DNA of 64,000 nt, from NCBI GenBank assembly GCA_015680685.1, contig MNCI01003108.1:238241-302240 (forward strand), read 5' to 3'. The notes below the pieces were generated by a model. The model saw only the letters and a program-made list of their open reading frames with translations, ran no database searches and was not told the origin of the DNA. A program made the position numbers and the translations under genes. This DNA is from Gnetum montanum (Eukaryota > Plantae > Gnetophyta). Positions 1-60,760 of this stretch are shown here, in pieces. Numbering within the stretch: the stretch's first letter is position 1; every line of letters starts with the position of its first letter.

Positions 1-194
1 TACATTCCCTTTTCTTCATAACCGCCAAAGTTTTAATTGTTAAATTCACATCCCTATCATTCAAAGTGCCTCTCAAATTCATGTAATTACCCTTGGATAC
101 ATTAATTCTTGTTAATGTCCTCATTTTACACATTAATTTCAAGAAAAATCATTAAAAATTCGATCTCTTTCTGGTGTCTTCCTATAGTTGAGAC

Positions 195-319
195 GAGATA
201 TTGCGTACGCAATATCGCGTCCCATGAGATATCACGTACGCAATATCGCGTCCCATGAGATATCGCGTACGCGATGTATCGTACGCGATATCGCGTCCCC
301 TGTTCCTATAAATAGGAAC
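195..319 (+). promoter_or_regulatory. Putative internal promoter: 31-bp tandem repeats of the GATATCGCGTACGCGATATC palindrome plus TATAAATA (307-314)
   Basis: Units at 195-225, 226-256 and 257-300; same motif and same motif-then-TATA order as the LTR U3 at 3705-3836; TATA lies within the inverted repeat GTTCCTAT-AA-ATAGGAAC. Confidence 0.6.
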
Positions 320-780: not shown

Positions 781-3510
781 ATGGCCCCGAAACGCTCCTA
801 GCAGAAGAGTCCAACACAAGGTGGAGCAAAAAAACCTAGGAGAGGTCGAAGGCAAGTCCCTGTCGGACAACATAATGAACAGGAGGTGCATTCATTCAGC
901 ATCCATCAAGATGAACCTCCTACTAGACGATTCGGGCAGGCGGAAGGAGGAGCTGCTGCGCCTGAACTGGGACAACAGCTCACGTTGCCCCCGGAATGTG
1001 TTCAGACTATTCACACGGAGTCCACAATCGCTTCAGTGATTGTGGAACTCAACTTCGAATCTTTTGCAGAGTTCGCTCCTGAGGCTGTTAGGGATCACCT
1101 CAAAGGGTCTTCCTTATGGCCCGTCCTCTCTGAACAAGCTGCCTGGTACTTAGGAGAAACGTACCTATTCTGGCACAATAAGGAGTAGGGCACCACGGTA
1201 AACATTGGTGGTGTGACAGTGGATTTTTCTTCACAGGCAATTTTGGAAGTGTTAAACCTTCCGAATTCAGGCCCCTACGTTGCTCAGTTATCCACCCGAT
1301 CAGACCCTGATGTGCGAAAGGATTGGCTAGAAAGGGCTTATGGCAGAGATAAAGCTTTTGGTGAGCTAACCACGGAAGAGAGAGTTTATTTTAAAATCGG
1401 AACCTATCACCTCTTCCCCACGAAAGGTTTAAAAAGAATATCAACGTACGCGACAAGAGGATGTGCAGTGTTGATGGGAAAGGTTAATGCTAACCTTCCT
1501 CATCTATATTTGACGGAGATCCTAAGGCGATTCGAAGAACGGAAGACAGGAAAAATGGCACTCCCTTTTTCCTGTCTTATCAGAAAACTGTGTTGTCAGG
1601 CTGGGATTCGAGGATATACAAATGACGTTTTCCGAAAGGCCCAAAATGCTTCTTACGCTGAATTGTTAAAGGCGCCAGCTCCAAGAAAGAGCACTGGCGA
1701 AGAGTTGGGACCAGATGAAGAAGATGAAGAACAAATGACTGGACCTCCTGCGACTCAACTTGCAGGACCCAGTCAACCTCCAGCCACAGGTCTTAGCCAA
1801 CAACAAGAAGCAGGACCCAGTACAGGCCAGGATCAGCCGCCGCCGCAAGACTATAGACCATCAATGACCCATTTGAGGGCCATTGCTGAGACGGTTAGTT
1901 GGGGAAGTCGTGATGACGCCAATCTCTTCCGTGTCATCGATGATGCCAACCAGCCTANNNNNNNNNNNNNNNNNNNNNNNNNNNNNNNNNNNNNNNNNNN
2001 NNNNNNNNNNNNNNNNNNNNNNNNNNNNNNNNNNNNNNNNNNNNNNNNNNNNNNNNNNNNNNNNNNNNNNNNNNNNNNNNNNNNNNNNNNNNNNNNNNNN
2101 NNNNNNNNNNNNNNNNNNNNNNNNNNNNNNNNNNNNNNNNNNNNNNNNNNNNNNNNNNNNNNCGGAACCTCAATGACTCCTGCTGAACATGAGGATGTAT
2201 TGGACAGACTGCTTCAAATAGGACAAGTTTTAACGTCCCTGTTTGACATCCCCCAGGATGTAACAGCAATTCAGTCAGACCTCATTTTGACAAAGGGGAA
2301 ACTGGTCATATCCGAAGTAAGGGCTAAGGATGCTGAGGCTGAAGTGCAGAAATTACAAGAGCAGCTCATCGCCTTACAAGCAGCACAGCGGGATCCCTTG
2401 TGATTGGTTCCCGCGGACCAGTTAAACAATTTTAAAACCGAGCAACTAACCAAACTAATTGCAGAAAATAAGAAGGTGGCAGAAGAAAAGGAGACGGCCA
2501 CTTGGGATGCCTCCGCAGAAAAGGCGCAAACTCATGCGCATCTTAAGGCACTCAAGACCTTGCAAGAAGAGAATAAGCAGTTGGTTGCAGATAACCTTCG
2601 GTTGACTTCTGTGGAAAAGCAAAAGAATGTTCTCGATGAGCACTTTCATTGGCTGCGAGAACAACTCATCCGAGTCAACCAAGATGTAAGCCGTTTAGCC
2701 AGAGAAAATCGGACCCTCTCAGTGGAGGAGGTACGCGCTATTCGGCAAAAATCAGCCATCGAGATTAGTGTGTGGCAGAATGAGGCTAAACGACATGAGA
2801 AGCTGAAGGAGCACTTCCGTGACCAGGTGGGGATGTATAAACAGATCCTGGAGACAGAGATCCATATGGCCAAAGCTCAAATCAACAACATCAGTGCCTA
2901 GCACACTGATTGGGGGGCCATTGTGGACACTTATGCCTATGCCCACCAGGCGGAAATTAAGAACCAGGACCTGCAGATCCAGGACTTAACTGAATACATG
3001 GAGTTGACAAACCTTCGATGTGCCAACCTGGCCATGTTAACAGCAAGATGCCCGAGGTCAGAGCTCGAGCAGCAGGTAGCTTCCACCCACATCAAATATG
3101 AGGCAGAATTTGCAGAATGAAAGAAGTTGGCTGAAAAACTAGATGTTGCAAATTCTGAACTCGCGGTGGTAAAAGAAAGCTACCAAGGACAGAAAGATAT
3201 GGCAACCGACTTGGCTCGATGGCTAGTAGAACTTCACGAATACAAAGACAGAGCCAGAGCCTACGAAGAGGAACGACGGGTGTTCGCAGCATGGTACGTC
3301 AAAGCTAATCAGATGTTCCCGCAACTACCTTGTCCGTGGGAAGTGCCGACTCCATCAAACATCGGAGCATCAGCATGGACAGCACAAAACCCTCGGACCA
3401 AAGAGGAGAAGCTCCAGGCTATTGTTCAGTGTCATCAACCTTCAAAGCTTGGAGCATGTGACAAGGGGAAAGCACCCATGGAGGAGCCACCGCCACCAGG
3501 AACTACATGA
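781..3510 (+). pseudogene. Retrotransposon 3' accessory (env-like position) ORF, ~909 codons: basic N-terminus, putative plant transposon protein (Transposase_32-like) domain, acidic/P/Q linker, long coiled coil
   Basis: ATG at 781 (MAPKRS); ORF-track pieces 886, 1213, 2404, 2923 and 3127 share one frame, separated only by single TAG/TGA codons (CAG/CGA deamination-type). Motifs 'VNIGGVTVDFSSQAILEVLNLP' and 'LPFSCLIRKLCCQAGI'; ends EEPPPPGTT*. N gap at 1958-2162. Confidence 0.8.
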
Positions 3511-3681
3511 GTTCCACATTTTTGTAGTTGTAGCATTTTTTCTTTGTGTTGTGTCTTCCCACACTGCGGCAATTGTCCATTTCTTTTTCTAGTTAATAAT
3601 CCCATACCTATCCACTGTGTAATCACTGAAGCTTGTTCTCTTTGTAACTCGAGGACGAGTTTTTATTCAGTCATGGGGGTA

Positions 3682-4357
3682 TGATGAGACGCGGTTTGCA
3701 CAAGCCGCGATATTGCGTACGTGATATCGTAGCCGATGAGATATCGCATCCCCCGCGATATCGCGTATGCGATATCGCGTCCTTCCCTACGATATCGTGT
3801 ACGCGATATTGCAGTCCACCACCATGTCTATAAATAAGAGGCGGCTCTCCCTTATTTGGGGATCCCAGTTTTGGTGTAGCGAAGCTCTGGCAGTTTGATC
3901 CCTCTATAGTTAGAATTTTTCCCGTGTCTGCCCGCAGTGTGATGAATGTAATTGTACGGTGTCTTTATTCGAGTGTGCCGTACTTGGACACGCACATGAC
4001 CGGCAATAAAGATCGAGATTACTTCATCATTGCAGCATTCACTTAGTTTATTTANNNNNNNNNNNNNNNNNNNNNNNNNNNNNNNNNNNNNNNNNNNNNN
4101 NNNNNNNNNNNNNNNNNNNNNNNNNNNNNNNNNNNNNNNNNNNNNNNNNNNNNNNNNNNNNNNNNNNNNNNNNNNNNNNNNNNNNNNNNNNNNNNNNNNN
4201 NNNNTTTCTTACCCTTTTCCTCTTAGCTTAGCTTAGTTAGTATTATTTTCCACTGCCTTCAGGAGTAACATAGATTAGAACACATCATACACCTCATCTA
4301 GACTAAACCATACGTGACATATGCAAAACTAGTTTAGATGGGAAGACAGCGAACTAA
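3682..4357 (+). repeat. 3' LTR of element A (family A), 3' end truncated
   Basis: Starts TGATGAG after the PPT; GCGATATCGC repeats, TATAAATA ~3829, AATAAA ~4005; homology to 9669-10490 stops before the CTCATCA terminus. Confidence 0.85.
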
Positions 4358-26241: not shown

Positions 26242-26749
26242 GTATCAATGTTTGCTTAATAGTTGATCTCATAGAGTTTGTTGTATCAAAACAAAAAAAT
26301 TTATTCTTTACATTCTTAATAGATCTTAATAACACACATACACACACATCTAAAGCATCAAGCATACAACATGACTTCAACACTTATGGAGAAGTTATCA
26401 TCTGCTTAAGAGACACAAAAAAGTCATGACAAGAAATATGATGACAAAGACTGAAGTGCACCTATGCAAACCAGGATTTCATACGCTCATACCGATTCAT
26501 ATTATCTTAACTTCACCTTTATCTTTCATCAAGATGAACAACTAAGGTTAAGAGATTTCCAAGGTAATGTATTTTTACCTCCTAAACATTTAGCACCATC
26601 CATGCCTAAGGAAATGTTAATGAGGTTGAACCTTGGCCATGCACAAGAAGGGTATTAGGCTACTAAATGTGGAACTTTTTGGTGTGTTAAAACATTAAGT
26701 AAAATGGAGATAAAATATGTATGTGTGGTTGTTGTGATTGTAGGACCAA

Positions 26750-26897
26750 GATGAGATGACAAAGAAAGCATTAGTGTAATTAGAAAGAGAAGGTGATGAG
26801 ATGACAAAGAAAGCATTAGTGTAATTAGAAAGAGAAGGTGATGAGATGACAAAGAAAGCATTAGTGTAATTAGAAAGAGAAGGTGATGAGATGACAA
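26750..26897 (+). repeat. 45-bp tandem repeat, 3 perfect copies plus a partial one, in the Copia 5' LTR
   Basis: GATGAGATGACAAAGAAAGCATTAGTGTAATTAGAAAGAGAAGGT at 26750, 26795 and 26840. Confidence 0.95.
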
Positions 26898-28084
26898 GGA
26901 ATGTACTACAAAAGGAGAAATTCATCCACATGGTCTCAATGGTTCATCCACCAAAGGCAAGCTTAAAGGAAAAGAATTCAAAGAAAGTGGACAAGTAGTG
27001 TTGTCATCATTGAAGCATGCAAAAGATTAATGTTGTAGACGAGGAACGATGAATTCATCATGCAAAGAAAGGTTGAAGAAAGACATCTCTAAGAAATAGT
27101 AGACGTCTTGGCATAATTGGAGGATGCATAGGTAAAGATGTCTTCAGGAAATAGTAGACGTCCTTCCTTAGGCAAAGACATATTCCATCAAGTAGAGACA
27201 TATTCACAAAATGCAAGCCAGTTTCAAAAAGATGTCTTCCATTAGATAAAGACGTCTTCCGAGAATAGAGATTTGAAAAAGACATCTTTCCCAAACAAGA
27301 ACGTCTTCCTAGAATAGAAGGAAAATATAGAAAGATGTCTCAAGCACCAAGAAGATGTCTTCCATGATCAGTAGTGACTATTCGCTTACTGTTACATAGG
27401 TTTCAAGATGGATTTGAAAACATGATAACTATGAGAAGACACCATATGCATTGAAAAGTGTGCATGCTTATGTGTAATCATTCTATAATCATTTTGTCAA
27501 TCATTGTGATATGTGTTGCTCTTCATTATATCATCATTTGTACACTATAAAGTGTGCTATACCTCAAAGTGTAAGGATTAGCAAACTAAGTTGCATTTAT
27601 CCCTTGTAATTATTCTCCTTTGTTGCCTTGTGGGGTTGATGTGCTTCTTGCAGGAAGGCATCTTGCTTGAGCTTGTTAGGACTCTACAAGACTGAGTGAT
27701 TAGTGTTGCAGCACAACACTTCAGAGTAGAGCTCAATATTGTAAAGATTATGGAAGCCTAGAAACCACATTTCAAGCTTGATGAAACCTTACAAGGTTGA
27801 GTGGTTGATGTTGCATCATAACACTCCAAAGTAGGGCTTGAAGATTATATAGGTTGTGGATCCTTCAAACCACATTTGAAAGCAACAAAGTTTGAAGGTT
27901 TGCTTGCAATCTACCCTTTGAGTGTTGACTACCCAAGTTGGGAAACCACACTAATTTTGTATGTGTGCTTTAATTCATAAAGTTTTAATTTGCAAAACTT
28001 ATTCATCCCTCCCTTCTAAGTTCAACAATCCACAAGTGGTATCAGAGCTTGGTACTCTTCTTTGTCATCATCAACTTCAAGAGT

Positions 28085-29150
28085 GAACATTGGAGGGAAC
28101 ATCTTACACAAAGCCACCCACCCATGTTCAATGGATTCAACTTTGCCTATTAGAAAGCAAGAATGCAAGGTTTCTTTAAATTCATGGAGTTTGAAGTGTG
28201 GGAGTCAATCCTTGAAGGCTAAGATCTGCATATCGATAGCTCCATCAGCATCATCAAGCCTTGAAAAAAATGGAAACAAGAGGAAAAGGATAAGTTTATG
28301 TTTGATTCAAAAGCTAAAAATTGTTCATATTGTGCATTCAATAAATTTGAATTTAATAGAATAGCATGATGTAAAATGGCCAAAGAAATTTGGCAAACTT
28401 TAGAAGCTACTTATGAAGGAACATCTATTGTTAAGCAATTAGAATTGTTAGTTTTACAAAGTGAATATGATAAACTCAAAATGAGAGAAGGTGAGAAAAT
28501 AAAAGATCATTTCTCTAGAGCTAATGATCTTGTTGTAGCTATTAGAGGAACAGGTAAAGATTTTCTTGAAAGTGATGTCATCGTCAAGATTACCAAAGCT
28601 CTACAATTAGAGTTTAGACCAAAGGTCACAACCATGGAGGAGTTTAGAAATTTCTCAACCTTAAAATTTGAAGAGCTTCAAAGTGTTCTCATTGCTTATG
28701 AAATGAATCTCATAAGTGAAGAAGCAATCCTAGAAAGACCTATTACTCTGAAGATTGCCTCTAAGGAGAAGGAGTTCAATGAACATGATGAGGGTAGCGA
28801 AGATGAGATGACCCTTCTCTCAAGAAAGCTACAACGATTGCTAATAAGAAGTAACAAGGAAACATCAAAACAAAGACTCAATTTGTTAAAAGGTAGAGAA
28901 AGAGGTAGAAATTTTTAAAATTCTAACTTAGATTTCTATTCTATATAATGTTGGGATTGTGGAGGAAAAGGCCATATAGCCTTTGAATGTCCTAGTGATA
29001 GGAATGTACAACCAAGGAATAGAACCAATGATGAGGAACTAAAAAAGACCAACTTTTATACAAGTTGGGATGATGGTGAGCAAAGTGAGGAAGAAGTATG
29101 TAACTCTTTCAAGGATTCACATCTCATATGCATGGTGCTTATAAATGAAA
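28085..29150 (+). pseudogene. Copia (SIRE-like) gag with UBN2-like region and CCHC zinc knuckle
   Basis: 'KPPTPMFNGFNFAY*KARM', 'AKEIWQTLEATYEGTSIVK', 'FRPKVTTMEE', 'CWDCGGKGHIAFEC' (~28948-28990). Confidence 0.88.
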
Positions 29151-32100
29151 GTTCTTGACATATAACTAAATAAGATGGTAAGTGTGACAAGAGGTATAGT
29201 GAATTTAAAGAAGAAATTTTTCTTTTACATCATTTGATTATGAACGCTAAGAAACTAGTACTTTCTAAGCTAGATGCTATTCATGCTAAAATGATAGAAG
29301 GGATCTTAGACATAAAAGTTGAGACTCACCAATTAACCTCTTTTAATAAGGATTGCGGTAAAGTTCAAGAAGAGGAGACTCTTGAAAAATAGCCAAGGAA
29401 TTTAGAGGAAGTAACACACAAAAATTCAAGCTCAAGCTCAAGCATAATAAGGTTTGATAATTTTGATCATCAAGATAATACCTTGTTTGTTTGTAAAAAT
29501 TGTGGATGTAAGTAGACTCTTAACTATACTCATGATGATCAAAACAAGTTTAACGCTTGGTCTTGTCAAAAAGGCTTTGGTAAGGAAATTGTTCAAGTAC
29601 CAATTAGTGAGAATGAAGAGAAGTGATGAATTGAAGATGATGCAATAAGTGATCAAAGGTTCTATCGTAAAAAGCATGAACAAATAGAGACATTACACAT
29701 ATAATCTAATGAGAGAGAACCAAAGGATGAGGTGGTACTTCATGATAGGGGACCTCATCTCAAACTTCATTAATCTTCTCTTCTCCTCTACAAGCAACGT
29801 AAGTCAAGGTAAGCTTCCATCTCTTTGCTTACTAGTTAATACGGTATTTGAAGTCCAAAATTATTTTTCTTGAAAAATGGTGGAATAATTATTTAGAGCA
29901 TCCCTTACATTCAATTTTGAGCTTGACATAATTGGTTCTATGAACATATGTGTGTAGCTCTTATTTTGATTTCCTTTGGATCATTATCTTATTTTTTTTG
30001 TCATGTTTAATCTAAACTTATTGTGACGATCTACTTCTAAGCTCATGCCCTTTGGGATATTTTTTCTATTTATGAAATAAAACACATTTGTGAAAAATCC
30101 TATCAATATTACTAATTGGAGATCTTAGTCTCCACATTTGAGCTTAATGTTGACCTACAGTTGTAGTGTGTTTGTGATTTATAACAATTGTACATTAATA
30201 GCCCAAGATAAGTAGCACATGTGTCGGGGGAGCCTATTCCTCATTATCCATCACCATGTTAGAGATCACCAATGTAGGAGTAATCTTTGGAGACTTCAAC
30301 CAAGAGACATTGAAATAACAAAATATTCCAAAATGAGCAAGATAAGGACACCAAGAGGTATTTTTTCTTTTAAGAGGATGGCTAAGTCTTAAATTTGTGA
30401 TCTCCTTTGGCATGATTATCATTTCATTTTTGAAAATTAATTTTATTTGTGGCATTGTCTTATACAAAAAGAAAAATATGCATGTTTCTTTCATGACTTC
30501 CATATCCTTTGTGTTGATGTATTCCACATTTCTTGTTGAATATAAATATACAAGTTCTAATGATATATTTATTTCAATTAAATAGGTTGCTTGATATACA
30601 CTTAGTTTTTAACATCAAATTATGTGTTGTTGGTTTTTTTTTATTAGTTGTAGATCCTTATTTTGAACTGATAAGAGTAAGTCTTAATGTATCATCAGCC
30701 CACATATTTGATATTCAAGCATAAGTTGAAGTAAGAAGTAAATATATCTTTATGAAAGAATGCAAATAGTGATATTATTCCTTACAACAATATGAGCAAG
30801 CACATGATGATTTTAATTATGGGAAAGTATCCACAATTTGATTAAAACATCTTTTGAATAGTTTGCCTTGAGATGTACTTCCTAGCTCAAGAATTTAAAA
30901 TATGGCATGTTTGATCTCACATTGTAAAGATGTATTTCCCTTATCATATAAGATATGCCCTAATCTTTTGCTGATGTTTTTAAAAGGACAAAGAATATTT
31001 TAGCATTAAAAACACTATGCACTATAAACTACTAATGATTTATTTGAGACAAGTTACTTGATCTTCAAGACTTATAGTTCACTTCAAGCTTTAAGTTTGA
31101 GTATCAGTTGGAAAGGCTTGGATTAGTTCTTGATAAATTCAGGATAACTCCTCATGGAACTTCGTGCTAAAAAATGTATGCTCTTTAATTAATATTGTTG
31201 CCTTCTAAATGCTTTTTTTTTTGGATTCTAACATGATTGTTGATTATGCTTATTTTATACTATGCATTTATGATGACTCTTTTTCCACTTTATGTGCCTT
31301 ATCCTTTGTTTCTATTCAAATAGGGGGAGAGTAGTGTGGTTATATTTGTATGATTACTAACCTATTTTCTTAAGTTTTGAACATCATCAAAAAGGGGGAG
31401 ATTGTGGACCTTTTAGTGTGTCAAAATGTTAAGTAAAATGAAGACAATAGATGTATGTGTGGTTGTTGTGGTTGTAGGACCCAAATGAGATGACAAGGAA
31501 TGCATTGGTGTAATCAAAAAGGGAAAGTGATGAGATGAAAAGGAACACACTAGTGTAATCAAAAGGAGAAAGTAATCCACATGGTCTCAAGGGTTCATCC
31601 ACAAAAGGCAAGCTTAAAGGCAAAGAATTCAAAGAATGTGGATAAGTAGAGTTGTCATTATTGAAGCATGTGAAAGATCAAGGTTGTGGACAAGGAACGA
31701 TGAATTCATCATGTAAAGAAAGGTTGAAGAAAGACATCTCTGAGAAATAGTAGACGTCTTGGTAAGATTGGTAGATGTACAGGCAAAGACATCTTCAAGA
31801 AATAGTAGACATCTTTCCTCAGGCAAAGATGTCTTCCATCAAGTAAAGACATCTTCACAGAATGCAAGCCAGTTTCAGAAAGATGTCTTCCATTAGACAA
31901 AGATGTCTTTCAAGAATAGAGATTTCAGAAAGATGTCTTTCCCAAACAAAGGTGTCTTTCCAAAATAGAAGGCAAATATAGAAAGACAACTCAGGCATGA
32001 AGAAGACATTTTCCATGACCATTAGTGATCGTTCACTAGCCATTACATGAATTTCAAGATGGTTTTGGAAACATGATAGCTATAAGAAGACATCATATGC

Positions 32101-32689
32101 ATTGGAAACTCTACAAGCTTATGTGTAGTCATTGTACAATCATTTTGTTAATCATTGTGATCTTTGTTGCTCTTCATTGTATCTTCATTTGTACACTATA
32201 AAGTGTGTTGTACCTCAAAGTGTAAGGATCAGCAAACTAAGTTTCATTTATCCTTTGTAATTGTTCTCCTTTATTTTCCTACGGGGTTGATGTGCTTCTT
32301 GTAGGAAGGCATCTTGCTTGAGCTTGTCGAGATCCTACAAGATTAAGTAATTAGTGTTGTAGCACAACATTCTGAAGTGGAGCTCAAAATTATAAAGATT
32401 GTGGAAGCCTAGAAACCACATTCCAAGCCTAATGAAACCTTGTGGGGTTGAGTGGTTGGTGTTGCAACACAACACTCTGTATTAGGGCTTGAAGATTGTA
32501 TAGGGTGGGGATCCTTCAAATAATATTTAAGAGCAACAAAGTCTAAAGGTGTGCTTGCTATCTACCATCCAAGTGTGGACTACCCAAGTTGGGGAGCCAC
32601 ATTAATTTTATGTGTGTAATTTAATTCATAAAGTTTAAATTTTGGGAACTTATTCATCCACCCCCCTTCTAAGTTCAAAGATCCACACT

Positions 32690-35085: not shown

Positions 35086-38000
35086 TTTTTATGGAAGAAT
35101 TGAGCAATTGAACATTTTGGAAGATGTAGAGGTTGTCTGAAGGATCTATAATCATGGATGATGCTTAGATTATAAAGATTTGATGTTTAAAGATCATAAA
35201 GAAGGAATCTTAGAAAAGAAGGTTTATTAGATGTATTTGAGATGAAGTGTCGTAAAAAATATGGTCAAGTATAAGACTTAAGAAAGTAATCATTGATTAT
35301 TAAAGTGTCTTGGAGGAACAAGATGATGTGGAATTAGTTGTCAAGTATAAGATACAAAAGTTATACAAGTGGGACCTCCCCAAAGATGGCTTCAACCCTT
35401 AGTGTCATTGTATAACCATACATATAAGTGTCCATAGACACTTAGGGAGTTGAATGAACATACCTGTCTTGTGGAACACACATGTTAGTATCATCAAGTT
35501 GAAAAAATAACATTATATTATACAAAACCATAAAATTATGATAAAATATACCAGTGAGGTAAACTGAGATAAGAAGGGATTGTAGAAATTGAGATGTGAG
35601 GTATCTTACCATAGGAATAATGGATTTTTATGTGATATATGGTTAAAGTAATCATTAGCCTTTCTATCGAAGATCCAACCCAAGTTCATACCACTTACCA
35701 ATGACATCACATTGTATCATCCCAAAACTAGCAACCATAAGACTACCACTACTAAAAGAAGTATTACCACTTGGTAATGTTGTTCAAGGAAGGAGTTTAT
35801 TAATAACACACTTTATTTTTGAGATTTCTAAGAGGCTACCTACCTTCAGGCATGGGCAATATGTTTTTCTAGTGAGAACTCTAGAAATTTTATTCTATGC
35901 ATTTATTATATTTATACTGTGTCAACCTTACTAGAGGACTATCTTCAAGCATGGGTAACATATCTTTCCAATGATATGGTAAGGTAACATTTATTATAAT
36001 CATACTTCCATTTTTCATTAGAACTCAAGATAATAATACAATCTTAACAGCAAGATAAGACTACTAGTAGTAGTCTTTGAGAATCCACAAATCCTGTTGA
36101 TGTCATGCCCTTTTCATTTCCACTTGGTTCTTCTCTTTTCTACCCAATCATAATGATCACAAGTTTATTTTAGTTTTATTATGGAAAGAATATCATTATG
36201 ACCATGGTACAAACCTCTTATTACTAGAAATGAGTGGATGGATGATGAGGTCTCACTATATATTGAATCAGTCCTTCATGATTTGATAATATAGGATAAT
36301 CTTCATCTTATTGGGCCTACATCTTACTTTATTCCTTTGCACTTTATTGGACAAATCAACAAAAATATGTACCAAAAAAATAACGAAAATGATAGAAAAT
36401 GATAAAAAATGGAAAAATAGAGAAAGAATTTAAAAGATATCAAAGAATAACAAATGATTAAGAAATGGAAAAGTATAAAAAATGAAAAGACATCAAAGAA
36501 TGTAAAAATGTAATAAGAAAAGAAAAATATTCAATACAGTGCCTAAGTGTTACATGGGACACCTCCATGACTATTATTAGAAATAGTCAACCAAAAGATA
36601 GAATGGGTTGAGGATAGTTTAGTGAGCTACGTAGAATCCACAGAGGAGTTGGGATGTTCATAGTATGGTTTGACTTGTTGAATATTGACTAGAATAAATT
36701 TGTGTGAGCTAGCCCGATGGTAAATTTGCATGGTGCCTGTGGGGTATGTTTCATGGATGATCTAGAAACCTTCCCATAAGGTTTGGAACTTAGCCTTCTA
36801 TGGTACATGATTGGGATTATAATATAGAACTTTATCACCTGATTAGATTGATACTTACTGTATGCATGCGTCATGCCTACATTTGGAGTATTTCTGATGT
36901 ATTTCATTTCTCATCAAGGGTACAAGTTTATCTTCCTCTAAAAGGTTAATGTTCATGAGATAATCTTTCTAAGCTAAGCTTAGGTCTAAGTTAACTTTAC
37001 TAGCAACAGCTAAGGTTTCTAGCTCTACTTAGATTGGTAGTGTGGAAAATTTTCCATAGACTAGCTCATGGGACAAGTATCCATTGGAAAATTTCCATGT
37101 GGTCTTATATGCCTATAGATCATCATTCAATTTAGTGCTCTGATCCTTTCTAAATCAACTAACTATTCTAGTTGGCATTCTTGTGATTTCCTCATTAGTC
37201 ACTTTTGCATAACCATTTTCTTTGGGGTGGTATTTTGTAGTTAGTTTGTAATTCACCCTAAGTTGTTGCATTAACTTTTTAAATGTAGCTCCTGTGAAAT
37301 GTGTTCCATTGTCAAATATGAGCATACATGGTACTCCAAACCTATTTACCACATGTTGTTGAAAGAATTTAGTAGTTGTTTTGGCTAGGCAATCCTTGAC
37401 TATAGTTTCTTCTACCCATTTGATACAATAATCAATTGTTACTATAATATATGCTTTCCCATTAGATATCAATGTGATGGGCCCCATAAAGTTAATTCCC
37501 AAGATGTTAAATCCCTCTAGTGGCTACATCCATTGTTTTGGCTTTTCATGTCGAGTTGTTATTCCTCCATCATGTTGACATCTTTCACAAGACTGGGTGA
37601 AGTTGTATGTGTCCCAAAATATGGTAGTCTAGAAGTAGCTTGCCATCATCAATGTCAGTGCTATTGTGTGCCTTGCGTAATGACCACCACATTGTTCTTC
37701 ATGTGCATCTTATAGAATTCTTTATTGGTTCTCTTCTGGAATACATCATCTCACTAATCCATCAGCATAGATCTTGTAAAGATTTTCATTGATTTCCATA
37801 TATCGCTTCACTTTATGGAGGAACTACTCTTTTTGTTTCCTATTCCACTCAACAAGAAGTTCTTGTGTGATAAGATAAGTCATGTAGTTAGTAATCCATG
37901 ACTTCTCTATTGAGTTGGCAACCATTGTTTTCTTTGTGAACAAATTCTCATCAAGAAACTAGTCTAATAATGATTCTTCTTGCTCCTGTGGTTTCCATCT

Positions 38001-39092
38001 TAGCATTGACAAGTGAATTGTGACATTGTCTATTCATTTTTTGTCGATCATAGTGATGTTAAACTCTTGTAGTATTATGGGTCATCTTATCACCCTTGGA
38101 CTCACCACTATTATATTCATCAAAAATCTTATTACACTACGATCCATGTTGAGAGTGTCTAAACTTTTCCAGTACATACACCATGACCATAAGCTCCTTC
38201 TTCGAGGTGTTCTAGTTGAGTTCTACTTTGATGATGCTTCGACTATGATAGTGTATGTAGTATGGCCTCTTTTGATCATCAAGTTGAGTCAATACTACAT
38301 CCATTGCATAATTTGAAGCATCTATCATAATTTGAAAGGGCTTAGGCTAATTTGGAGCTTGAAGGATTGGTGTTTCAATTTGCTTATGTTTTAGTGTCTT
38401 AAATGTCTTCTCAAATTATTCTGTCCATTAGAATGATGTATCTTTCTTTGATAATTCTACTATCATTTTTGTTATTTTTTAAAGACTTTTCGATGGATCT
38501 TCTATAATATCCTATATGGCCCAAGAATGATTGGACATCCTTAATGATTTTTGGCCTCTAGGAAATATTTTAAATGATTCTTACCTAATCTAGATCTACA
38601 TCTATTGCTTTTTGTGATGTCCTATGTCCTAGAAAAATCTCACCTTGGACCATTAAATGGCTCTTTTTCCAATTGAGCTTCAAACTGGTTTCAAGACATC
38701 TTTTCAATATTTGCTGCAGTTAGTCCAATGTCTGCTTAAAATCTAGTGCATAAATAGAAAAATCATCCATAAATACCTCTACACCATTACCAATATGTTT
38801 TTGGAAAATACTCAGTACTAGTCTTTGAAAAGTAGTGGGCGCATTACACAAGCCAAACAACATTTGCTTGCAGGCAAATGTCCTCCAGGAATTGGTGAAT
38901 GTGACCCTCTCTTAATTTTTCGATGCAATGTGGATTTGGTTATACCCACTATACCCATCAAGAAAACTATAGTACTAATGTCCTACTATGATATTGACTA
39001 TCTGGTCAACAAATGGTAGAGGAAAATGGTCCTTGAATGTTGCTAAATTCAATAACCAAAAATCAATGAAGACCCTCCACTTGTCACCTTTC

Positions 39093-42000
39093 TGTTGGCG
39101 ACCGTTTGGGATGTGACCGCCAACGAGTGTCCTCGAACAGGATTTAGGTGCTTGCTGGTCTCTGGCAACACCAAGGCCCAGATACCTCCAAATAGACTCA
39201 GTAGTTAATGTGAGTATGTGTGTGTGCTGTTGCAGCTTGCGGTTGTGAAAAATGAAACGATTGCGTTGTGTATAAACTACAAATGACTTATTAATAAGAG
39301 ATTCAGCCAACTTTACCAAGTACCGTGAGTAGTTGAGAGTTTCTATTTTGTTCAATTGTCTAGTCTACGCGGTCCTTATAATACCTACTTGTAACAAATA
39401 AAATTNNNNNNNNNNNNNNNNNNNNNNNNNNNNNNNNNNNNNNNNNNNNNNNNNNNNNNNNNNNNNNNNNNNNNNNNNNNNNNNNNNNNNNNNNNNNNNN
39501 NNNNNNNNNNNNNNNNNNNNNNNNNNNNNNNNNNNNNNNNNNNNNNNNNNNNNNNNNNNNNNNNNNNNNNNNNNNNNNNNNNNNNNNNNNNNNNNNNNNN
39601 NNNNNNNNNNNNNNNNNNNNNNNNNNNNNNNNNNNNNNNNNNNNNNNNNNNNNNNNNNNNNNNNNNNNNNNNNNNNNNNNNNNNNNNNNNNNNNNNNNNN
39701 NNNNNNNNNNNNNNNNNNNNNNNNNNNNNNNNNNNNNNNNNNNNNNNNNNNNNNNNNNNNNNNNNNNNNNNNNNNNNNNNNNNNNNNNNNNNNNNNNNNN
39801 NNNNNNNNNNNNNNNNNNNNNNNNNNNNNNNNNNNNNNNNNNNNNNNNNNNNNNNNNNNNNNNNNNNNNNNNNNNNNNNNNNNNNNNNNNNNNNNNNNNN
39901 NNNNNNNNNNNNNNNNNNNNNNNNNNNNNNNNNNNNNNNNNNNNNNNNNNNNNNNNNNNNNNNNNNNNNNNNNNNNNNNNNNNNNNNNNNNNNNNNNNNN
40001 NNNNNNNNNNNNNNNNNNNNNNNNNNNNNNNNNNNNNNNNNNNNNNNNNNNNNNNNNNNNNNNNNNNNNNNNNNNNNNNNNNNNNNNNNNNNNNNNNNNN
40101 NNNNNNNNNNNNNNNNNNNNNNNNNNNNNNNNNNNNNNNNNNNNNNNNNNNNNNNNNNNNNNNNNNNNNNNNNNNNNNNNNNNNNNNNNNNNNNNNNNNN
40201 NNNNNNNNNNNNNNNNNNNNNNNNNNNNNNNNNNNNNNNNNNNNNNNNNNNNNNNNNNNNNNNNNNNNNNNNNNNNNNNNNNNNNNCAAGTGTCTTCATG
40301 GTAATCAAAATTAAAATTAGTTACAAATATCATAGTTGTAACTATCATAGGAAGTTACAACTTCCATAAGAACAAAAGGGATAATAGCCAACTATCCCCT
40401 TTATATAGGATGTTACACAAATATCCCATAACTTTCTTTTCCTTTTTAAATCATAAAATATTTTCTTTAAATCATAGTAATAGAGATAGTAACCATGGAG
40501 TTGTTGCATACATGGATAGATAAAATATATGCGTATGTAGGTATAGCCAAATGCATAAGTGGAGTTGCAATGCCACGTTTTCAGCATAAGGTAGATGTCA
40601 TGTAAAGCACCGCTGGTTGCATACATTAGTGACTCTTGGCTTACCCAACACATGGTCCAATTGTTGTTGCAATAACATGAAATCACAAGAGCCATCACTA
40701 CCGTAGCTACTCCTGCCATGAAACACCAGAGAGGTGCACGCTTACGTCCATTGTTTGGTACTGTCGTTTCTATCAGGTACATTACATAGTTGTAGTGTCA
40801 CCAGTGTTGTTTCCATGAGTGAAGTCACTGCCCTAGCATATGAAGCTAGGGATCACACGGTGGAAGGTGGAACCCTTGTAATGCAGAGGCTTCCCACTTC
40901 GACTAGTGCCCTTCTTGCCTGTACACAGCACACAAAAGTTCTCTGCCATCCTTGGAACCACATCCTTGTAAACCTCCATCACAACACGCCCGGCAGGGAC
41001 ACCATCAATCTCGAGGTCAAAGAAAACAGTCAGGCTCTTCATTCTGTCTCGATCAGATCACGTACAAAAATAGAAATCGTCAAAGATCGACAAACCCTAG
41101 TACTTCTGCAAAATCCACTGATGCCTGCAAATCAGCTGCTATCTCACCATTTCTGCAAACTAACGAAGAACCAAAGAATGAACCGTGGCTGAAACAGTAA
41201 TGTTGAAAATCAGTATTGCAGGACCTCCTGGTAGAGCAGCATTCTTCTGGCTTGTTCACCTCCATCAGATTGCCAACGGCAGCTCAACAAAACCCTTGGC
41301 CGTCGTGAAATTCATCCACAGCAACTTCTTTATTCTTAGTTTTCCAAAACCGTGATTCTACTTCAAAGGCATCCTTAATTTTAGAATCTGATCCATAAGA
41401 ATTGATACTAGTGGTCGTAGTAATTCACGTGTTGTACCTGGAAACAGTAAAAATAGGCCTCCAAAGTTTGAATCACAGGCATTATTTGCCATAATTTCCT
41501 CCTGGGGATGGGCCTTGTTGACATCATCTAGTTTATTTGTTGTCTGTTTCCCTTTAACAGCTTACTGATCAACATATTGCCTAAACTTTTCCATTCTTTG
41601 ACAAGTTCGTATTTCTTTTGAAATTCTTTCCAAATTATTTTAGGCAGAGTGCAGATACCTTCAACAAATATGGGCAGCCTAAAACACTGTTTTCTACCAC
41701 CTTTCCCTAAGGATAGCTCTTGCTCATTCTTTATCAGTATCCAAATGATCAATTCTTGAAAGTATTTCTAACAATAAAGAATTCCTTGCTTGTCAATTCA
41801 TTCACCATTGGCACATTATCTCTTGCAATCTTCTATTCACTGTCTTTCATATGTGCATCATTATTTCCACCAATAATGTGGTCTCCCAGATATGCATGCC
41901 TTTCCTCCTTAAGGGCTCCATGCAAGGAATTCTTTAGTTGATGATGTAGACAACCAATGATGTTGCTTTGAGGACAATACTCTAGTATACCTAATCCACC

Positions 42001-42316
42001 TCACAGCATGTTCCAAATGAGAGTTAGACAAACCTCTGGAATATCCACAAAAGAGATGGGCACGTAAAAGTTCCAACCTAGTGAATTTTGAGAAGCAAAA
42101 TCATATGCTTGTTTCCCATGCTAAGTATCAGTCTAATTGATAATCCAGAGAATTAAAATTAGGGAGAATAAATGCAGCCCATCTCATCCAATCTTTTTTA
42201 GCGAGTGACAGGAATCAATACCTTCATCTTGCCATTTCAATAGTTCTATTGAAATATTTTGAAGGTTTCAATCATCAAATATCTTTGTTCCATGAAATGG
42301 CCAAAATGTGCCAACA
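39093..42316 (-). mobile_element. 3.2-kb LTR-like insertion (probable long solo LTR) with TGTTGGC...GCCAACA ends, TSD CTTTC/CTTTG
   Basis: Removing it restores the RT motif VIVPKKGDKWR; 7-bp inverted termini; AATAAA on the minus strand at ~39290; contains an ~880-nt N gap. Confidence 0.8.
40796..41042 (-). pseudogene. Cyclophilin (cytosolic CypA/ROC-type peptidyl-prolyl isomerase) 5' fragment
   Basis: [80 protein letters not shown]; has the divergent RSGKPLH loop; the Q of MCQGGDF is TAG; homology ends before the C-terminal half. Confidence 0.93.
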
Positions 42317-43944
42317 CTTTGTTTGGAACAATGACTAAGAGACTAACCCATTCACTATCTGCGGTCAAATAGAGGAATCCTACCTTTAATAGCTTTTCCA
42401 ATTCCTATATTACTACTTCTTTGAGCTTACGATTCAATCTTCTTTGAGGCTGGCAATGTGGTTTGACAGCTGGATCTGTATAAATTTAGTGTTGACATAT
42501 ACATGGGTTGATGCCTGTTATTCCATTATAGGACCATGTGAATGTTATTAGCCATTTATTCATCACTTCCAATAATCTTTTCTTTTGTTATTTATCAATG
42601 TTGGTGTTAATGATTACTAGTTTTTTATTATTCAGAAAAGCATATACTAGTACCTCTAGTAGGGCTTTTAACTCTAACATTTCTTGTTCAAATTTGTATG
42701 GTATCTCTAACTATTCCCACTCAATGTCTTCTTCTTAATGTAAATGCACATAGGGGTGTTTCCTCCTTAACTATTCTAACTTATTGGTTTCTTCAACATA
42801 AGCATGTATGATTTGATTGGTTAATTCCATATATATTTTAGATTCTGTCTCTTTATCGTTAATCTGCGTCTAGGTGCCTTCTTGTTTGGTAGCTGCCACA
42901 TACAAACATTGCTACACACACATTTCTTCTACACATTGATTGCATGATGTATTAATTTCTTATTTTATAGCCTATATTTTTTTTCACGCAATTACACCCA
43001 TTATCACTATATGTTATACAAGAAACTTGGCATCTTTGTATAATTCCAACTTCATCTTCCTTGAAAATTTTCAAGGACAAGTCTCTAATTCCTAGCTTAG
43101 CATCCATAGTGCTAAGCCATGCTCTTCCCATGATTATAGGAAACTCTCCCTTGTTTTTCCCCATGTGTATTACTAAGAAGTAAAAAGGGTAAGACCAGCC
43201 ACATATGGTGGTGATGAAATCATCCACTTTTCTAAGTGGAATAGTGATTGACTAGTCTACAAGGTCTAATCAGATATTGCTCAAAAATCAAAATTTTTTA
43301 GCCATGATGTTGCATCTACTATGTTGCATCACCTACGATGTCAAAGCTATGATGTTGCATCTCCGATGTTGTGGTCATAAAAATCTATATATACATAGTG
43401 AGCTAGAAACATTTTTCATTCTACCATTTCATAGTATGGGGAGTTCATGTAGTTTTTCTGAGCTCTGACACTTGAACTTTCAAACACCATAACTTCCTCA
43501 CCACAACCTTGATTTGCATGATTCTTGAACCCAGTTGAACTTGGAGTGCTTAACTTAGTTGTGGGGGGGGGGGGGGGGGGNGATAATGAGGGTTGAGCCA
43601 AAATTTTCTAATACCATGAGATAATATTAAGGGTAAGTATAAGAATAAATAAGAATATTTTAATCAACTAAGAAAATAAAAGCTAATAGACTTAACCGAT
43701 TCTCCTAACCAACCATTCAATGTTATAATAAACAAGAAAATGAAAAATGTGAAAGGTCATAACAATCAAAGATATAACAATTAAGCATTTCTTTTTGAAT
43801 TTCTCTAACTCTATAATCATAATAAGGGTCATAACTAATAATAAAGATAGAAATTAGATTAAACCAAGGATCCGAGAAAGGATTATGAGCTATTAGAAAC
43901 ATATTTAAAATCCTTTGATAACCTTAAATTCTTAATGATTGTAA

Positions 43945-58100: not shown

Positions 58101-60760
58101 TTTTGCGTAGGTGCATAAGCACTTAATCCTTGGAGTTCAACTAGATCACACGTGAACACTCGTATTCATATAGTTGGGCGTAGGGGTACCTCACCGCTCA
58201 TCAATTACCTTCCTTGGGAATAAGTCTAATGACTCCTTTATTTAGCTCTTAACTAAGAAAACATTGTTCAATGGCTTTTACAAAAATATAATAAAGGTCC
58301 ATACTAACAACATCCCAATGGTTTTTAAAAAACACAATGGGAATTCCATCAAAACCTAGAGCTTTATCATTGTCCAAGCTAAACATGGCATCTTTAATTT
58401 TAGTAAGATAGATATCTTGAGCAAGAAGATCATTGTGATTGCTATGAACAATATTAGATAAATGATCACAATTAGAGAGAAAATCCTCATGATTACAAGC
58501 CTCTAAGATAAAAATAAATTGAAAATATGTTTCAAGAAAACCATTAACAATATGAGGATCTAAACTAATTTGACCAACAACTTCCATGAAGTCAAGAATA
58601 GGCAAATTACCTTTACCTTTTAAGAATTTAAAAAATTCATTGCATGGTTCTCCCTCAATTTCAACTAATTAATATGACTCTTGGGGAGAGCACTCTTAGC
58701 ATTATGCATATCCCATTTTGTTTGACTGAGAAAACACAAGCAAGTCATTGTTAAAGATTAACATTAAAAGGATCATGATGTAATGTTAATATGTTGAATT
58801 TCATCACAAATTTTTTTCTCAATCTCACTTTATCTTTTGACATATTGCTTACCTAACTAGTGAGCAAAATTATGAACATAACATATAGCACGCAATCACC
58901 AATCAATCTAACCTAATTTATCAAGGGATCTCATTTCTGCATTCCATAAAGATGTCAAAATACCTTTTCCAAAGAAGTAAGATATAAAGATGCATTCATA
59001 TGGAAAAGAGCATAACGTTAAACTGGAGATTTAATACCAAATTCTAAATTAAGAGAAATTAGAAAATAGCTTGAAAGAGTTACATCTTTATGAATAACAA
59101 CCTTTTCATCATAAAATTATGAAGAATAATTAGAAAAATAAAATTAGTTAAGTCTTTTAGAAATTTGATTGTCACCTTTTTGAAGGTTAGACCAAGTAAA
59201 CTAATCATCATGATGAATATTTGAACCAATAGCATCAGATAAACAAAATTAGTCCTTAAAATTACACCAAATGGAGAACTCATGGCTTGCAAGTTGAGAA
59301 GAAACTTCACCAATTTTATCATAAGAATTCTCAGTCATTAAAATCACCTCCAAAAAGGTAAGGAATGTTAGGCAATCTTTGAAAAAGAAATTTTCATACA
59401 ATAGTTCTACCTATAGAAGTAGTAGGAGCATAAATATTACAAATACCAGAAGGACCCAAAGCACCTTGTAGAATAACCCAAACTACAAAGTTATCACTAC
59501 CATGAGAGATAATTTTTTTAGACACAATATTATTGATAATGAAAGATGCACCACCTTGACCAATATTATGATTAGTAAATAATATTGTAGAGTTGTGAAG
59601 AATGCTACTACCTGCCATGACTATATTTGTATTAGAAATGTTAATCTCTTGAAGAAGAATAAAATTGGAAACTAAAAGTCGTGTATGAAGAAAAGCACTG
59701 ACAAATTTTATCCAGAGTCTATTAATAAGACCACGGACATTCCATAAAAAAAGGCCTCACCTTGTCAGTAGAATTAACATTATCAAAAGAAATTATCTCT
59801 ATTTCTTGGCCAATAGTAGTAAATGAATTATTTATAATTAAAAAATCCTGAGCATGATGACCATTCTGAAGATTTGATATATATTTGCCAATAGATAGAC
59901 TATCTGAATGTTTTTTATTATGAAGAACCATTTGAAATCCATCTAAATCAACAATAGGATTCTGTGAAACCTTAATACCATATACTTGTTTCTCTTTAGT
60001 CATTAAAGAATTTTTTAAAATTAAATTTCTTGAAACCTTACATGAAGAAACATTTTTAGTAGGATCCTTAACATTAGTAGAAGAAACTTTAAAACCATTG
60101 GCTATAGCTTATTGCTGACATGCTTACATTGCCTCTTTCTATAGCATAAGAGAACATGCATCAAACATATGACCCTCTCAATGACAATAATGACATGACT
60201 TTGGAAGACTATAATAGAAAAACTTCTGCATGTAATCAATTATGCCAGTATGTAGAAGAATTTCTAGCTTAAGTGAATCAAGATCTAATCATATAACGAG
60301 TCCTACAAAAACCACTAGCTGTAACTAGGGTTTCAAAGTACTTGATCAACCCAATACAAGGGATAGTATCCCTTTCAACATTTTCAAAAATTAAAAGAAG
60401 ATTAAGCAATTCAACAAAATAAGAAACTTTTCAAAATTTAGGAGATGGTAGGTTAAAAGTGGGAGTCCACTTTCGAACAATCAATAAAGCATGATAATGA
60501 TTAAAAATACCAACATTAAGAGCCTTAAAGACCATCATCAAATCAACAAATTCTACTAGCAAGAATGAGTTAGACAAATAGTAAACATGAATAGCATCCA
60601 AAACTTGATCTTTCCAAACCTAATTCAAATGATTAAAAAACTAGATGAATGAGTTAAATAACCAAAAATTTGCCCAAAAAATACCTTCTAGAATTTTCCT
60701 AAGGAATAGATTCATATAAATCATTAAGCAATTTGTAGAATGACAAAGAAGTAGCAGTTT
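55170..60760 (-). mobile_element. L1-clade LINE remnant: ORF1 (DUF4283-like plus CCHC knuckle) and ORF2 (APE endonuclease, RT)
   Basis: ORF1 'LIVRKWTPTFN', 'CHYCH*EGHMFDAC'; ORF2 'ILLQEIN', 'GICNIYAP', 'GGDFN', 'KALGFDGIP..FFKNHWDVV', 'ITLLNSIYKILTK', 'VRQGCPLAPYLF'. Confidence 0.92.
57363..58203 (+). repeat. Solo LTR, family A, inserted in the LINE RT; TSD ATTAT/ATTAC
   Basis: TGATGAG...CTCATCA; flanks 57358-57362 and 58204-58208. Confidence 0.93.

What the first reader, a model, noticed from the sequence alone, without database searches (positions are those of the whole stretch)
39093..42316. LTR-like element carrying a captured host cyclophilin fragment
Seen: an insertion with TGTTGGC/GCCAACA ends and a 5-bp TSD contains the first ~82 codons of a cytosolic cyclophilin plus apparent 5'-UTR (telo-box AAACCCTAG at 41092), oriented like the element's AATAAA. 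No gag/pol, PBS or PPT is visible outside the N gap. Inference: a long solo LTR whose U3 acquired a host gene piece, so every copy would spread it and might produce siRNAs against the host gene. Established: cyclophilin A binds retroviral capsid, which makes the cargo intriguing, but this copy is truncated and has a stop. Flanking degenerate frames (40345-40782, 41080-42050) may be further captured pieces.
Basis: partly seen in the sequence, partly recalled or inferred. Interest (0 to 1): 0.7.

Follow-up and report, generated by a model that had tools for sequence, protein, structure and literature searches.

The report
Jumping-gene end packed with mRNA scraps
A very abundant plant mobile element carries, likely inside its terminal repeat, a string of short broken pieces of host genes (the front half of cyclophilin, a bit of pyrophosphatase and others); the cyclophilin piece recurs in other copies and was likely picked up from host mRNA by a copying slip, so it is one passenger among several rather than a special cargo.

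Summary
The insertion is real: 39093-42316, TG..CA ends, 5-bp target duplication (4 of 5 match), inside a dead Gypsy RT whose empty site is seen in other copies. The cyclophilin piece is real (PF00160, E 8e-13). Host cyclophilin mRNA fits exactly 40799-41140; molecules start at 41139-41140, so the piece begins at the mRNA 5' end and stops after codon 81. It is not unique to this copy: at two diagnostic sites one DNA contig carries the donor letter and the rest, roughly tens of copies, carry the window's. New here: it is one of several scraps. A 38-nt soluble pyrophosphatase piece (41307-41344) abuts a 51-nt piece of another mRNA, and three more stretches match RNA. Best reading: a solo LTR whose U3 gathered abundant mRNA scraps by template switching. 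LTR status and the RNA route are inferred: no full element, PBS, PPT or crossed intron was seen. The capsid idea has no support; siRNA was untestable. The scan noted the same kind of U3 mosaic elsewhere in this genome (e1-10606059).

The parts
39088..39092 (.). left target-site copy CTTTC
   Evidence: 5-bp length fixed by empty-site joints
39093..39405 (-). conserved end of the element (likely U5 end of an LTR), ends in CA on the minus strand; very high copy
   Evidence: summed depth 0.16-1.4 million; 125-166 contigs leave at 39093 into unlike flanks, agreement 0.37-0.40
39406..40286 (.). assembly gap, 881 N; contigs run on into it from 39405 with a shared sequence
   Evidence: 50-72 contigs per run, agreement 0.73-0.83
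40287..40432 (-). likely LTR promoter and start of R: only TATA-like site of the element at 40407
   Evidence: summed depth 10,000-42,000
40664..40720 (.). probable further host-RNA piece, donor unnamed, limits approximate
   Evidence: RNA depth about 16 in bin 40664-40704; 6 listed sites where all RNA reads differ from nearly all DNA contigs
40799..41042 (-). captured cyclophilin coding piece, codons 1-81, stop at codon 70 in this copy
   Evidence: 476 RNA reads leave at 40799 and go on as cyclophilin; 63 of 81 residues identical to P0088
41043..41140 (-). captured cyclophilin 5' UTR up to the mRNA 5' end, with the telo-box motif at 41092
   Evidence: 140 molecule starts or ends at 41139-41140 (36+38+29+37)
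41197..41258 (.). probable further host-RNA piece, donor unnamed, limits approximate
   Evidence: RNA depth about 11 in bin 41197-41237; 3 listed sites where RNA differs from nearly all DNA contigs
41259..41309 (-). 51-nt piece of a second host mRNA; read by eye on the minus strand it resembles a UFD1-family motif (recalled, not confirmed by a tool)
   Evidence: 54 and 43 RNA reads leave at the two edges; two searches gave no confirmation
41307..41344 (-). 38-nt piece of a soluble inorganic pyrophosphatase mRNA, overlapping the neighbouring piece by 3 nt
   Evidence: 63-77 and 64 RNA reads leave at the edges in two studies; 31 of 38 nt match L001, PF00719 E 1.7e-55; 0 of 2000 random 38-mers reach this
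41361..41524 (.). probable further host-RNA piece or pieces, donor unnamed
   Evidence: RNA depth about 22-32; 7 listed sites where RNA differs from nearly all DNA contigs; no protein match
41525..42265 (-). subfamily backbone of the presumed U3, CpG-poor, no identified gene
   Evidence: summed depth 1,100-10,900 over 41561-42265; CpG o/e 0.10 for 41700-42316
42266..42316 (-). conserved tip, begins TGTTGGC on the minus strand
   Evidence: bin depth 23,000-119,000 against 870-3,700 in the next bin
42317..42321 (.). right target-site copy CTTTG
37155..39092 (-). host Gypsy pol downstream of the insertion (RT, RNase H, integrase remnants; broken by stops and shifts)
   Evidence: PF00078 E 2.7e-14, PF17919 E 3.5e-21; PF00665 E 4.3e-8

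Best explanation
This is a real insertion of a very high-copy plant repeat, likely a solo LTR, whose variable middle (likely U3) holds a chain of short broken host-gene pieces, cyclophilin among them, likely captured from co-packaged mRNA by reverse-transcriptase template switching and then multiplied with one subfamily. Shown: ends, target duplication, empty site, the limits of three pieces, the cyclophilin piece starting at the mRNA 5' end, many copies sharing non-donor letters, decay by C-to-T change. Inferred: during minus-strand synthesis over U3 the enzyme entered cyclophilin mRNA at codon 81-82, ran to the cap, and had to jump back to an element RNA that already carried the other scraps; U3 is then copied into both LTRs, and recombination between LTRs left this solo copy. 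The cargo would be a neutral sample of abundant mRNAs, making no protein.
For: TG..CA, 5-bp TSD, no long inverted repeat (34 of 500 shuffles reach the terminal alignment score). Conserved tips with a variable interior and a TATA box downstream of the cargo. Piece starts at the mRNA 5' end; one contig (X1 record 5, 457 nt) holds 41143-41289 and then 310 unlike letters where cyclophilin would be. At 40821 and 40969 all X20 reads carry a letter found in 1 contig of depth about 7 out of 465 and 732 (X1), and 0 of 61 and 3.65 of 87 (X9): ratios 63, 102, 16, 23, an overcount but many copies. X9 lists 4 distinct contigs over 40891-41049 and 2 joints linking the coding piece to 41148-41150; X1 record 4 bridges 41140. 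Pyrophosphatase and neighbour pieces overlap by 3 nt. Cyclophilin and pyrophosphatase, and by eye the third piece, are sense to the TATA strand. 66 of 91 RNA-versus-window differences are A>G or T>C against 13 the other way. Template switching with microsimilarity and multi-gene chimeras is described in PMC5131818 (passages).
Against: No full element, second LTR, PBS, PPT, gag or pol was seen, and no genome is held; only this one copy lies in the window. No piece was shown to cross an intron; plant cytosolic cyclophilins are often intronless (recalled), so DNA-level capture is not excluded, and Pack-MULEs also favour 5' exons (10.1101/777037, passages). No listed contig bridges the 40799 junction with 31 letters on both sides (16 of 2064 pieces shown), so its sharing rests on flat depth (403 to 424 in X1; 69 to 95 in X9). 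The left end is about 5 times deeper than the right tip after scaling. One TATA-like site is thin support for orientation. Three of the six RNA-matched stretches have no named donor and could come from an expressed element copy.
Confidence: 0.6

Rival explanations
1. Same solo LTR, but the scraps were copied in at the DNA level (break repair with filler from gene DNA), as proposed for Pack-type elements.
For: Short multi-gene pieces, a 5' piece, and 3-nt overlaps also fit repair synthesis; Pack-MULEs most often take 5' exons and Helitrons often hold several pieces. No intron crossing shown.
Against: The cyclophilin piece ends within about 3 nt of the mRNA 5' end on the evidence of RNA ends and one cargo-free contig; named donors are abundant mRNAs; a retroelement offers an RNA route.
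Confidence: 0.15
2. Not a solo LTR but a non-autonomous element of another build: a Ginger-like or other DNA transposon with short termini, or a deleted retroelement whose mosaic is internal sequence and whose second LTR is collapsed in the gap.
For: Abundant ends with a heterogeneous interior is also the Pack-type pattern; GingerRoot has LTR-like termini and carries gene fragments (PMC6839031); the gap hides at least 881 nt.
Against: TSD is 5 bp, not 6 (GingerRoot, Ginger2) or 4 (Ginger1); no 100-150 bp TIR; no second copy of either end in the visible sequence; no transposase match; no strong Helitron-type hairpin end inside (8 weak candidates, best -5.8 kcal/mol).
Confidence: 0.17
3. The cyclophilin piece was kept for its function: a capsid-binding factor, or a decoy that makes silencing of the element costly through siRNA cross-talk.
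For: It amplified to many copies and is present in 4 of 4 DNA runs laid, from four species labels; capture-linked siRNA conflict is described in maize and a conifer.
Against: 81 of about 172 codons, a stop in this copy, position upstream of the TATA box, at most 6 of 2959 poly(A) reads are 95% or more like this copy, donor strongly expressed; a small minority of the family carries it; unrelated scraps sit beside it. 'Cyclophilin' does not occur in a 2025 review of host factors of plant LTR elements (PMC12786077, term search).
Confidence: 0.05
4. Artefact or one-off: mis-scaffolded gap, or a secondary retrocopy in this copy only.
For: TSD has one mismatch; no listed contig spans the gap.
Against: The RT match resumes at the left edge, empty-site joints match both edges in 4 of 4 runs, one X9 contig links 40446 to 39176 (depth 49.7), and many contigs share non-donor letters in the piece.
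Confidence: 0.03

Closest known systems
LTR-mediated retroposition (Tan et al. 2016, PMC5131818; passages read), including maize Bs1
   Same: Partial mRNA copies, several parent genes, short overlaps at junctions, further amplification with shared switch points.
   Different: There the retrocopies replace internal ORFs between two LTRs and Bs1 has 1-5 copies; here the pieces appear to lie inside the LTR upstream of the TATA box, are as short as 38-51 nt, and recur in roughly tens of copies.
Gene-fragment capture by gymnosperm TEs (Bao et al. 2026, PMC13477047; abstract and section 12 read)
   Same: Fragment capture by Gypsy and Copia elements is very common, with a preference for first and second exons.
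   Different: Only 13.68% of carrier TEs hold two or more fragments; the section read does not place fragments in U3. Its supplements were not read and may.
Cassandra TRIMs (5S rRNA in LTRs; search listing and abstract starts only) and BARE-2 (Wis-2 sequence in the LTR; PMC13317346 passages)
   Same: Foreign sequence fixed inside the LTR; for BARE-2 by abnormal template switching.
   Different: One conserved insert with promoter use, not a variable chain of protein-coding mRNA scraps; no Rfam match here.
Pack-MULEs, Helitrons and Sireviruses with captured exons (Muyle et al., 10.1101/777037; passages)
   Same: Mosaic of fragments from unlinked genes; possible siRNA cross-talk.
   Different: No long TIR or Helitron ends here; only 3% of Sireviruses carried fragments and most captures were in a single element.
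GingerRoot (Cerbin et al. 2019, PMC6839031; part 1 of 7 and passages)
   Same: Integrase-type ends, gene fragments, gene-poor sites.
   Different: 6-bp TSD, 100-150 bp TIR and a DDE transposase, none found here.

Membership tests
Solo LTR of an LTR retrotransposon | TG..CA termini with short inverted repeat | tested here: met
   7-bp TGTTGGC/GCCAACA; true terminus at 39093
Solo LTR of an LTR retrotransposon | 4-6 bp target-site duplication | tested here: met
   5 bp, 4 of 5 identical; empty-site skip 3229 = 3224 + 5
Solo LTR of an LTR retrotransposon | U3-R-U5 order with promoter and poly(A) signal | tested here: inconclusive
   One TATA-like site at 40407 minus; no AATAAA downstream in visible sequence; gap hides the rest
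Solo LTR of an LTR retrotransposon | Same sequence found as both LTRs of full elements with PBS, PPT, gag-pol | not testable with these tools
   No genome held; no second copy in the window; contigs too short
LTR-mediated retrocopy | Partial mRNA copy fused to element sequence | tested here: met
   RNA limits 40799-41140, 41259-41309, 41307-41344
LTR-mediated retrocopy | Loss of introns | not testable with these tools
   Donor gene structures not available; no piece shown to cross an exon junction
LTR-mediated retrocopy | Microsimilarity at junctions | tested here: inconclusive
   3-nt overlap at 41307-41309; other junctions lack the pre-capture sequence
LTR-mediated retrocopy | Secondary amplification with shared junctions | tested here: met
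   Shared non-donor letters at 40821 and 40969; contigs bridging 41140; 3' junction by flat depth only
GingerRoot / Ginger | 6-bp (or 4-bp) TSD | tested here: not met
   5 bp
GingerRoot / Ginger | 100-150 bp TIR | tested here: not met
   Only 7 bp exact; 17-bp imperfect match reached by 34 of 500 shuffles
Pack-MULE | Long TIR and 8-11 bp TSD (recalled) | tested here: not met
   no MULE Pfam hit
Helitron | No TSD; 3' hairpin plus CTRR end (recalled) | tested here: not met
   TSD present; only weak internal hairpins
Functional cyclophilin (PF00160) | Complete domain in an open, expressed frame | tested here: not met
   Profile positions 1-64 of 159; stop at codon 70; at most 6 of 2959 reads close to this copy

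The most novel reading that the evidence does not exclude
A dominant plant LTR family has a cargo slot in U3 that works as a running tape of the host transcriptome: each round of reverse transcription can add a 40-340 nt scrap of an abundant mRNA, U3 copying fixes it in both LTRs, and lineages with different chains spread across related species. The chains would date and order capture events and give thousands of donor genes a built-in siRNA link to the element.
Probability: 0.35. Interest if true: 0.65.

Novelty: new variant of a known kind. Interest (0 to 1): 0.42.

Why it matters
Gene capture by LTR elements is known, but mostly as internal cargo in few copies. Serial capture inside U3 of a very high-copy family would be inherited by both LTRs and by every solo LTR, and would give a large natural data set for two open questions: which cellular RNAs get packaged and copied by plant retroelements, and whether captured pieces draw silencing onto donor genes. 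The cyclophilin-capsid link that made the finding attractive does not hold up.

Tried and rejected
No whole genome is held, so genome-wide BLAST was impossible. A by-eye resemblance of an upstream frame to a MULE transposase motif was not confirmed: no Pfam hit and 1 weak hit, E 2e-4, to a repetitive unrelated protein among 1.84 billion. 13 stop-free frames and 12 short frames gave no Pfam family at its cut-off; two of the short frames meant for the 51-nt piece were in the wrong frame, so that piece was scanned only within a long frame. The stop-free frame over 41361-41561 had 0 of 34 candidates at E 10; the Atlas gave no result. PDB search with the 24-residue pyrophosphatase-bearing stretch gave only a chance hit; motif searches in papers found nothing useful. 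No tRNA, tandem repeat or Rfam match in the element. No RNA holder was listed by the run index. No near-identical truncated cyclophilin among 77 hits of similar length (best 71%). Whether other copies share the codon-70 stop was not visible (116 rows not shown). Literature: searches listed no paper describing a cyclophilin piece or a chain of mRNA scraps in a plant U3; listings only, most subscription journals are missing, supplements were not read.

Full report
Observation. The window is AT-rich nested retroelement DNA. TGTTGGC starts at 39093 and GCCAACA ends at 42316, with CTTTC and CTTTG outside and an 881-nt gap at 39406-40286. The left flank on the minus strand is a broken Gypsy RT and RNase H (PF00078 E 2.7e-14, PF17919 E 3.5e-21); the right flank gave no Pfam hit in 3 of 3 frames but reads by eye as the start of the same RT. 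Contigs of other Gypsy copies join 39092 to 42322 in all 4 DNA runs laid (1, 6, 4, 3 contigs). The skip is 3229, the element 3224, so the target duplication is 5 bp and both edges are right. At 39093, 125-166 contigs per run leave into unlike flanks (agreement 0.37-0.40), as expected for a true end. One X9 contig links 40446 to 39176, tying both sides of the gap to one family. Mis-scaffolding is unlikely.

The cyclophilin piece. The frame from 41042 downward matches PF00160 positions 1-64 of 159, plant cyclophilins in PDB (E 8.9e-36) and P0088 at 63 of 81 residues; codon 70 is a stop. In poly(A) run X20, reads cover 40799-41140 at depth about 1,000-1,570 over the coding part; 476 reads leave at 40799 and continue as cyclophilin (by eye GESIYGEKF), and 140 molecule ends fall at 41139-41140. 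The captured piece is thus 342 nt: the whole 98-nt 5' UTR and 81 codons. One X1 contig (record 5) carries 41143-41289 and then 310 unlike letters, so the upstream sequence exists without cyclophilin and the boundary sits at the mRNA start; this rests on one contig.

Is it in other copies? Yes. Nine runs under five coded species labels hold 29-50% of the sampled words. At 40821 and 40969 every X20 read differs from the window, but in DNA only one contig of depth about 7 does, out of 465 and 732 (X1); in X9, 0 of 61 and 3.65 of 87. Ratios are 63, 102, 16 and 23 (for X9 at 40821 the donor depth was borrowed from 40969). Summed contig depth overcounts, so I read this as tens. Independently, X9 lists 4 distinct contigs over 40891-41049 and X1 lists 3 over 40941-41095, one of each probably the donor; X1 record 4 bridges 41140; two X9 contigs join the coding piece to 41148-41150 with most of the UTR missing. 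For the 40799 junction no listed contig bridges (16 of 2064 pieces shown), but depth is flat across it (403 to 424; 69 to 95). It is a minority cargo: bin depth 64-706 against 0.4-1.4 million at 39164-39304, 10,000-42,000 at the TATA region and 23,000-119,000 at the right tip.

More cargo. RNA of two studies matches 41307-41344 and leaves at both edges (63-77 and 64 reads). A pattern scan of metagenome contigs gave 1 locus, L001, encoding a soluble pyrophosphatase (PF00719 E 1.7e-55); the 38 nt match it at 31 positions, which 0 of 2000 random window 38-mers reach (maximum 25), and the loose ends read by eye as the flanking residues of that protein (IRRFFEDY, LPAA). A second mRNA matches 41259-41309 (54 and 43 reads) and overlaps the first by 3 nt; by eye it resembles a UFD1-family motif, recalled and unconfirmed. 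Three more stretches (about 40664-40720, 41197-41258, 41361-41524) have RNA depth 11-32 with letters rare in DNA; their donors are unnamed and an expressed element copy is possible. Contigs diverge at 41206 and 41403, so other copies differ in content.

State of this copy. 66 of 91 RNA-versus-window differences are A>G or T>C and 13 the reverse, the pattern of cytosine deamination in methylated DNA. Of 2959 reads laid, 1 is 99% and 5 are 95-99% like the window. The copy is dead cargo and the donor is not visibly silenced in this sample.

What the element is. TG..CA, 5-bp TSD, no long TIR, no second copy of either end, conserved tips around a variable interior and one TATA-like site downstream of the cargo fit a solo LTR on the minus strand with cargo in U3. 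This is inferred: no full element could be sought. GingerRoot, Pack-MULE and Helitron fail on TSD, TIR or ends.

Mechanism. Minus-strand synthesis crosses U3 right after the first jump (established; outlined in PMC13317346). A switch onto co-packaged cyclophilin mRNA at codon 81-82, run-off at the cap and a forced jump back would give a sense piece ending at the mRNA 5' end, as seen. Repeated switches explain the chain; U3 duplication and later transposition explain the shared copies. Tan et al. describe partial, multi-gene chimeras with microsimilarity. DNA-level filler capture remains open until an intron is shown to be missing.

Comparison and novelty. Capture by LTR elements is common in rice, sorghum, maize and gymnosperms (PMC3726574 passages). 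Foreign inserts within LTRs are known (Cassandra, BARE-2), and LTRs over 3 kb exist (PMC3485330 passages, with no LTR cargo in the passages shown). A chain of mRNA scraps inside U3 was not seen in six searches. I reached the mosaic reading; the scan's note e1-10606059, seen, reports the same kind of U3 cassette elsewhere in this genome. It is unchecked, and a look-up by the left-end sequence found no match, so it may or may not be the same family.

Verdict. Observation confirmed; interpretation partly supported; new variant of a known kind; interest 0.42.

Noticed in passing
window 39087-39092, loose ends at 39093: Across many unlike flanks, the majority letters next to the terminus end alike in all 4 runs (ATGTAA then G or T), suggesting a target-site preference or a common neighbouring sequence.
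   Followed up: no
window 40446 to 39176, run X9: A contig of depth 49.7 goes back from just upstream of the TATA box to near the left end, suggesting a tandem array of the promoter-to-end unit in that species.
   Followed up: no
window 39093-39124: The terminal 32 nt fold into a hairpin that includes the terminus (-6.6 kcal/mol, DNA parameters, no shuffle control).
   Followed up: partly
window 41031-41150, run X9: Two copies lack most of the cyclophilin UTR; a short ATG-containing repeat near 41143-41150 and at the start codon may have guided the deletion.
   Followed up: partly
window 41344, run X9: One DNA contig runs 12 letters further along the pyrophosphatase mRNA than this copy; if the donor has an intron there, it would prove capture from spliced RNA.
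   Followed up: no
window 1189-1956 and 2404-3510: Accessory ORF with Transposase_32 match (PF20167, E 1.9e-10, below cut-off) followed by coiled-coil-like frames with no Pfam hit.
   Followed up: partly
window 28370-28915, repeats 26674-28034 and 31408-32687: Copia gag (PF14223, E 7.3e-15) between two 84% identical direct repeats of about 1.2 kb: an old Copia element.
   Followed up: partly
window 58249-60108: Minus-strand frames that read by eye like LINE endonuclease and RT pieces; no Pfam hit for the 2 tested.
   Followed up: partly
window 192-299, 3704-3817, 5485, 9712, 57383, 61115: A palindromic CGATATCG-rich repeat in 13 copies within another LTR-like family present several times in both orientations.
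   Followed up: no
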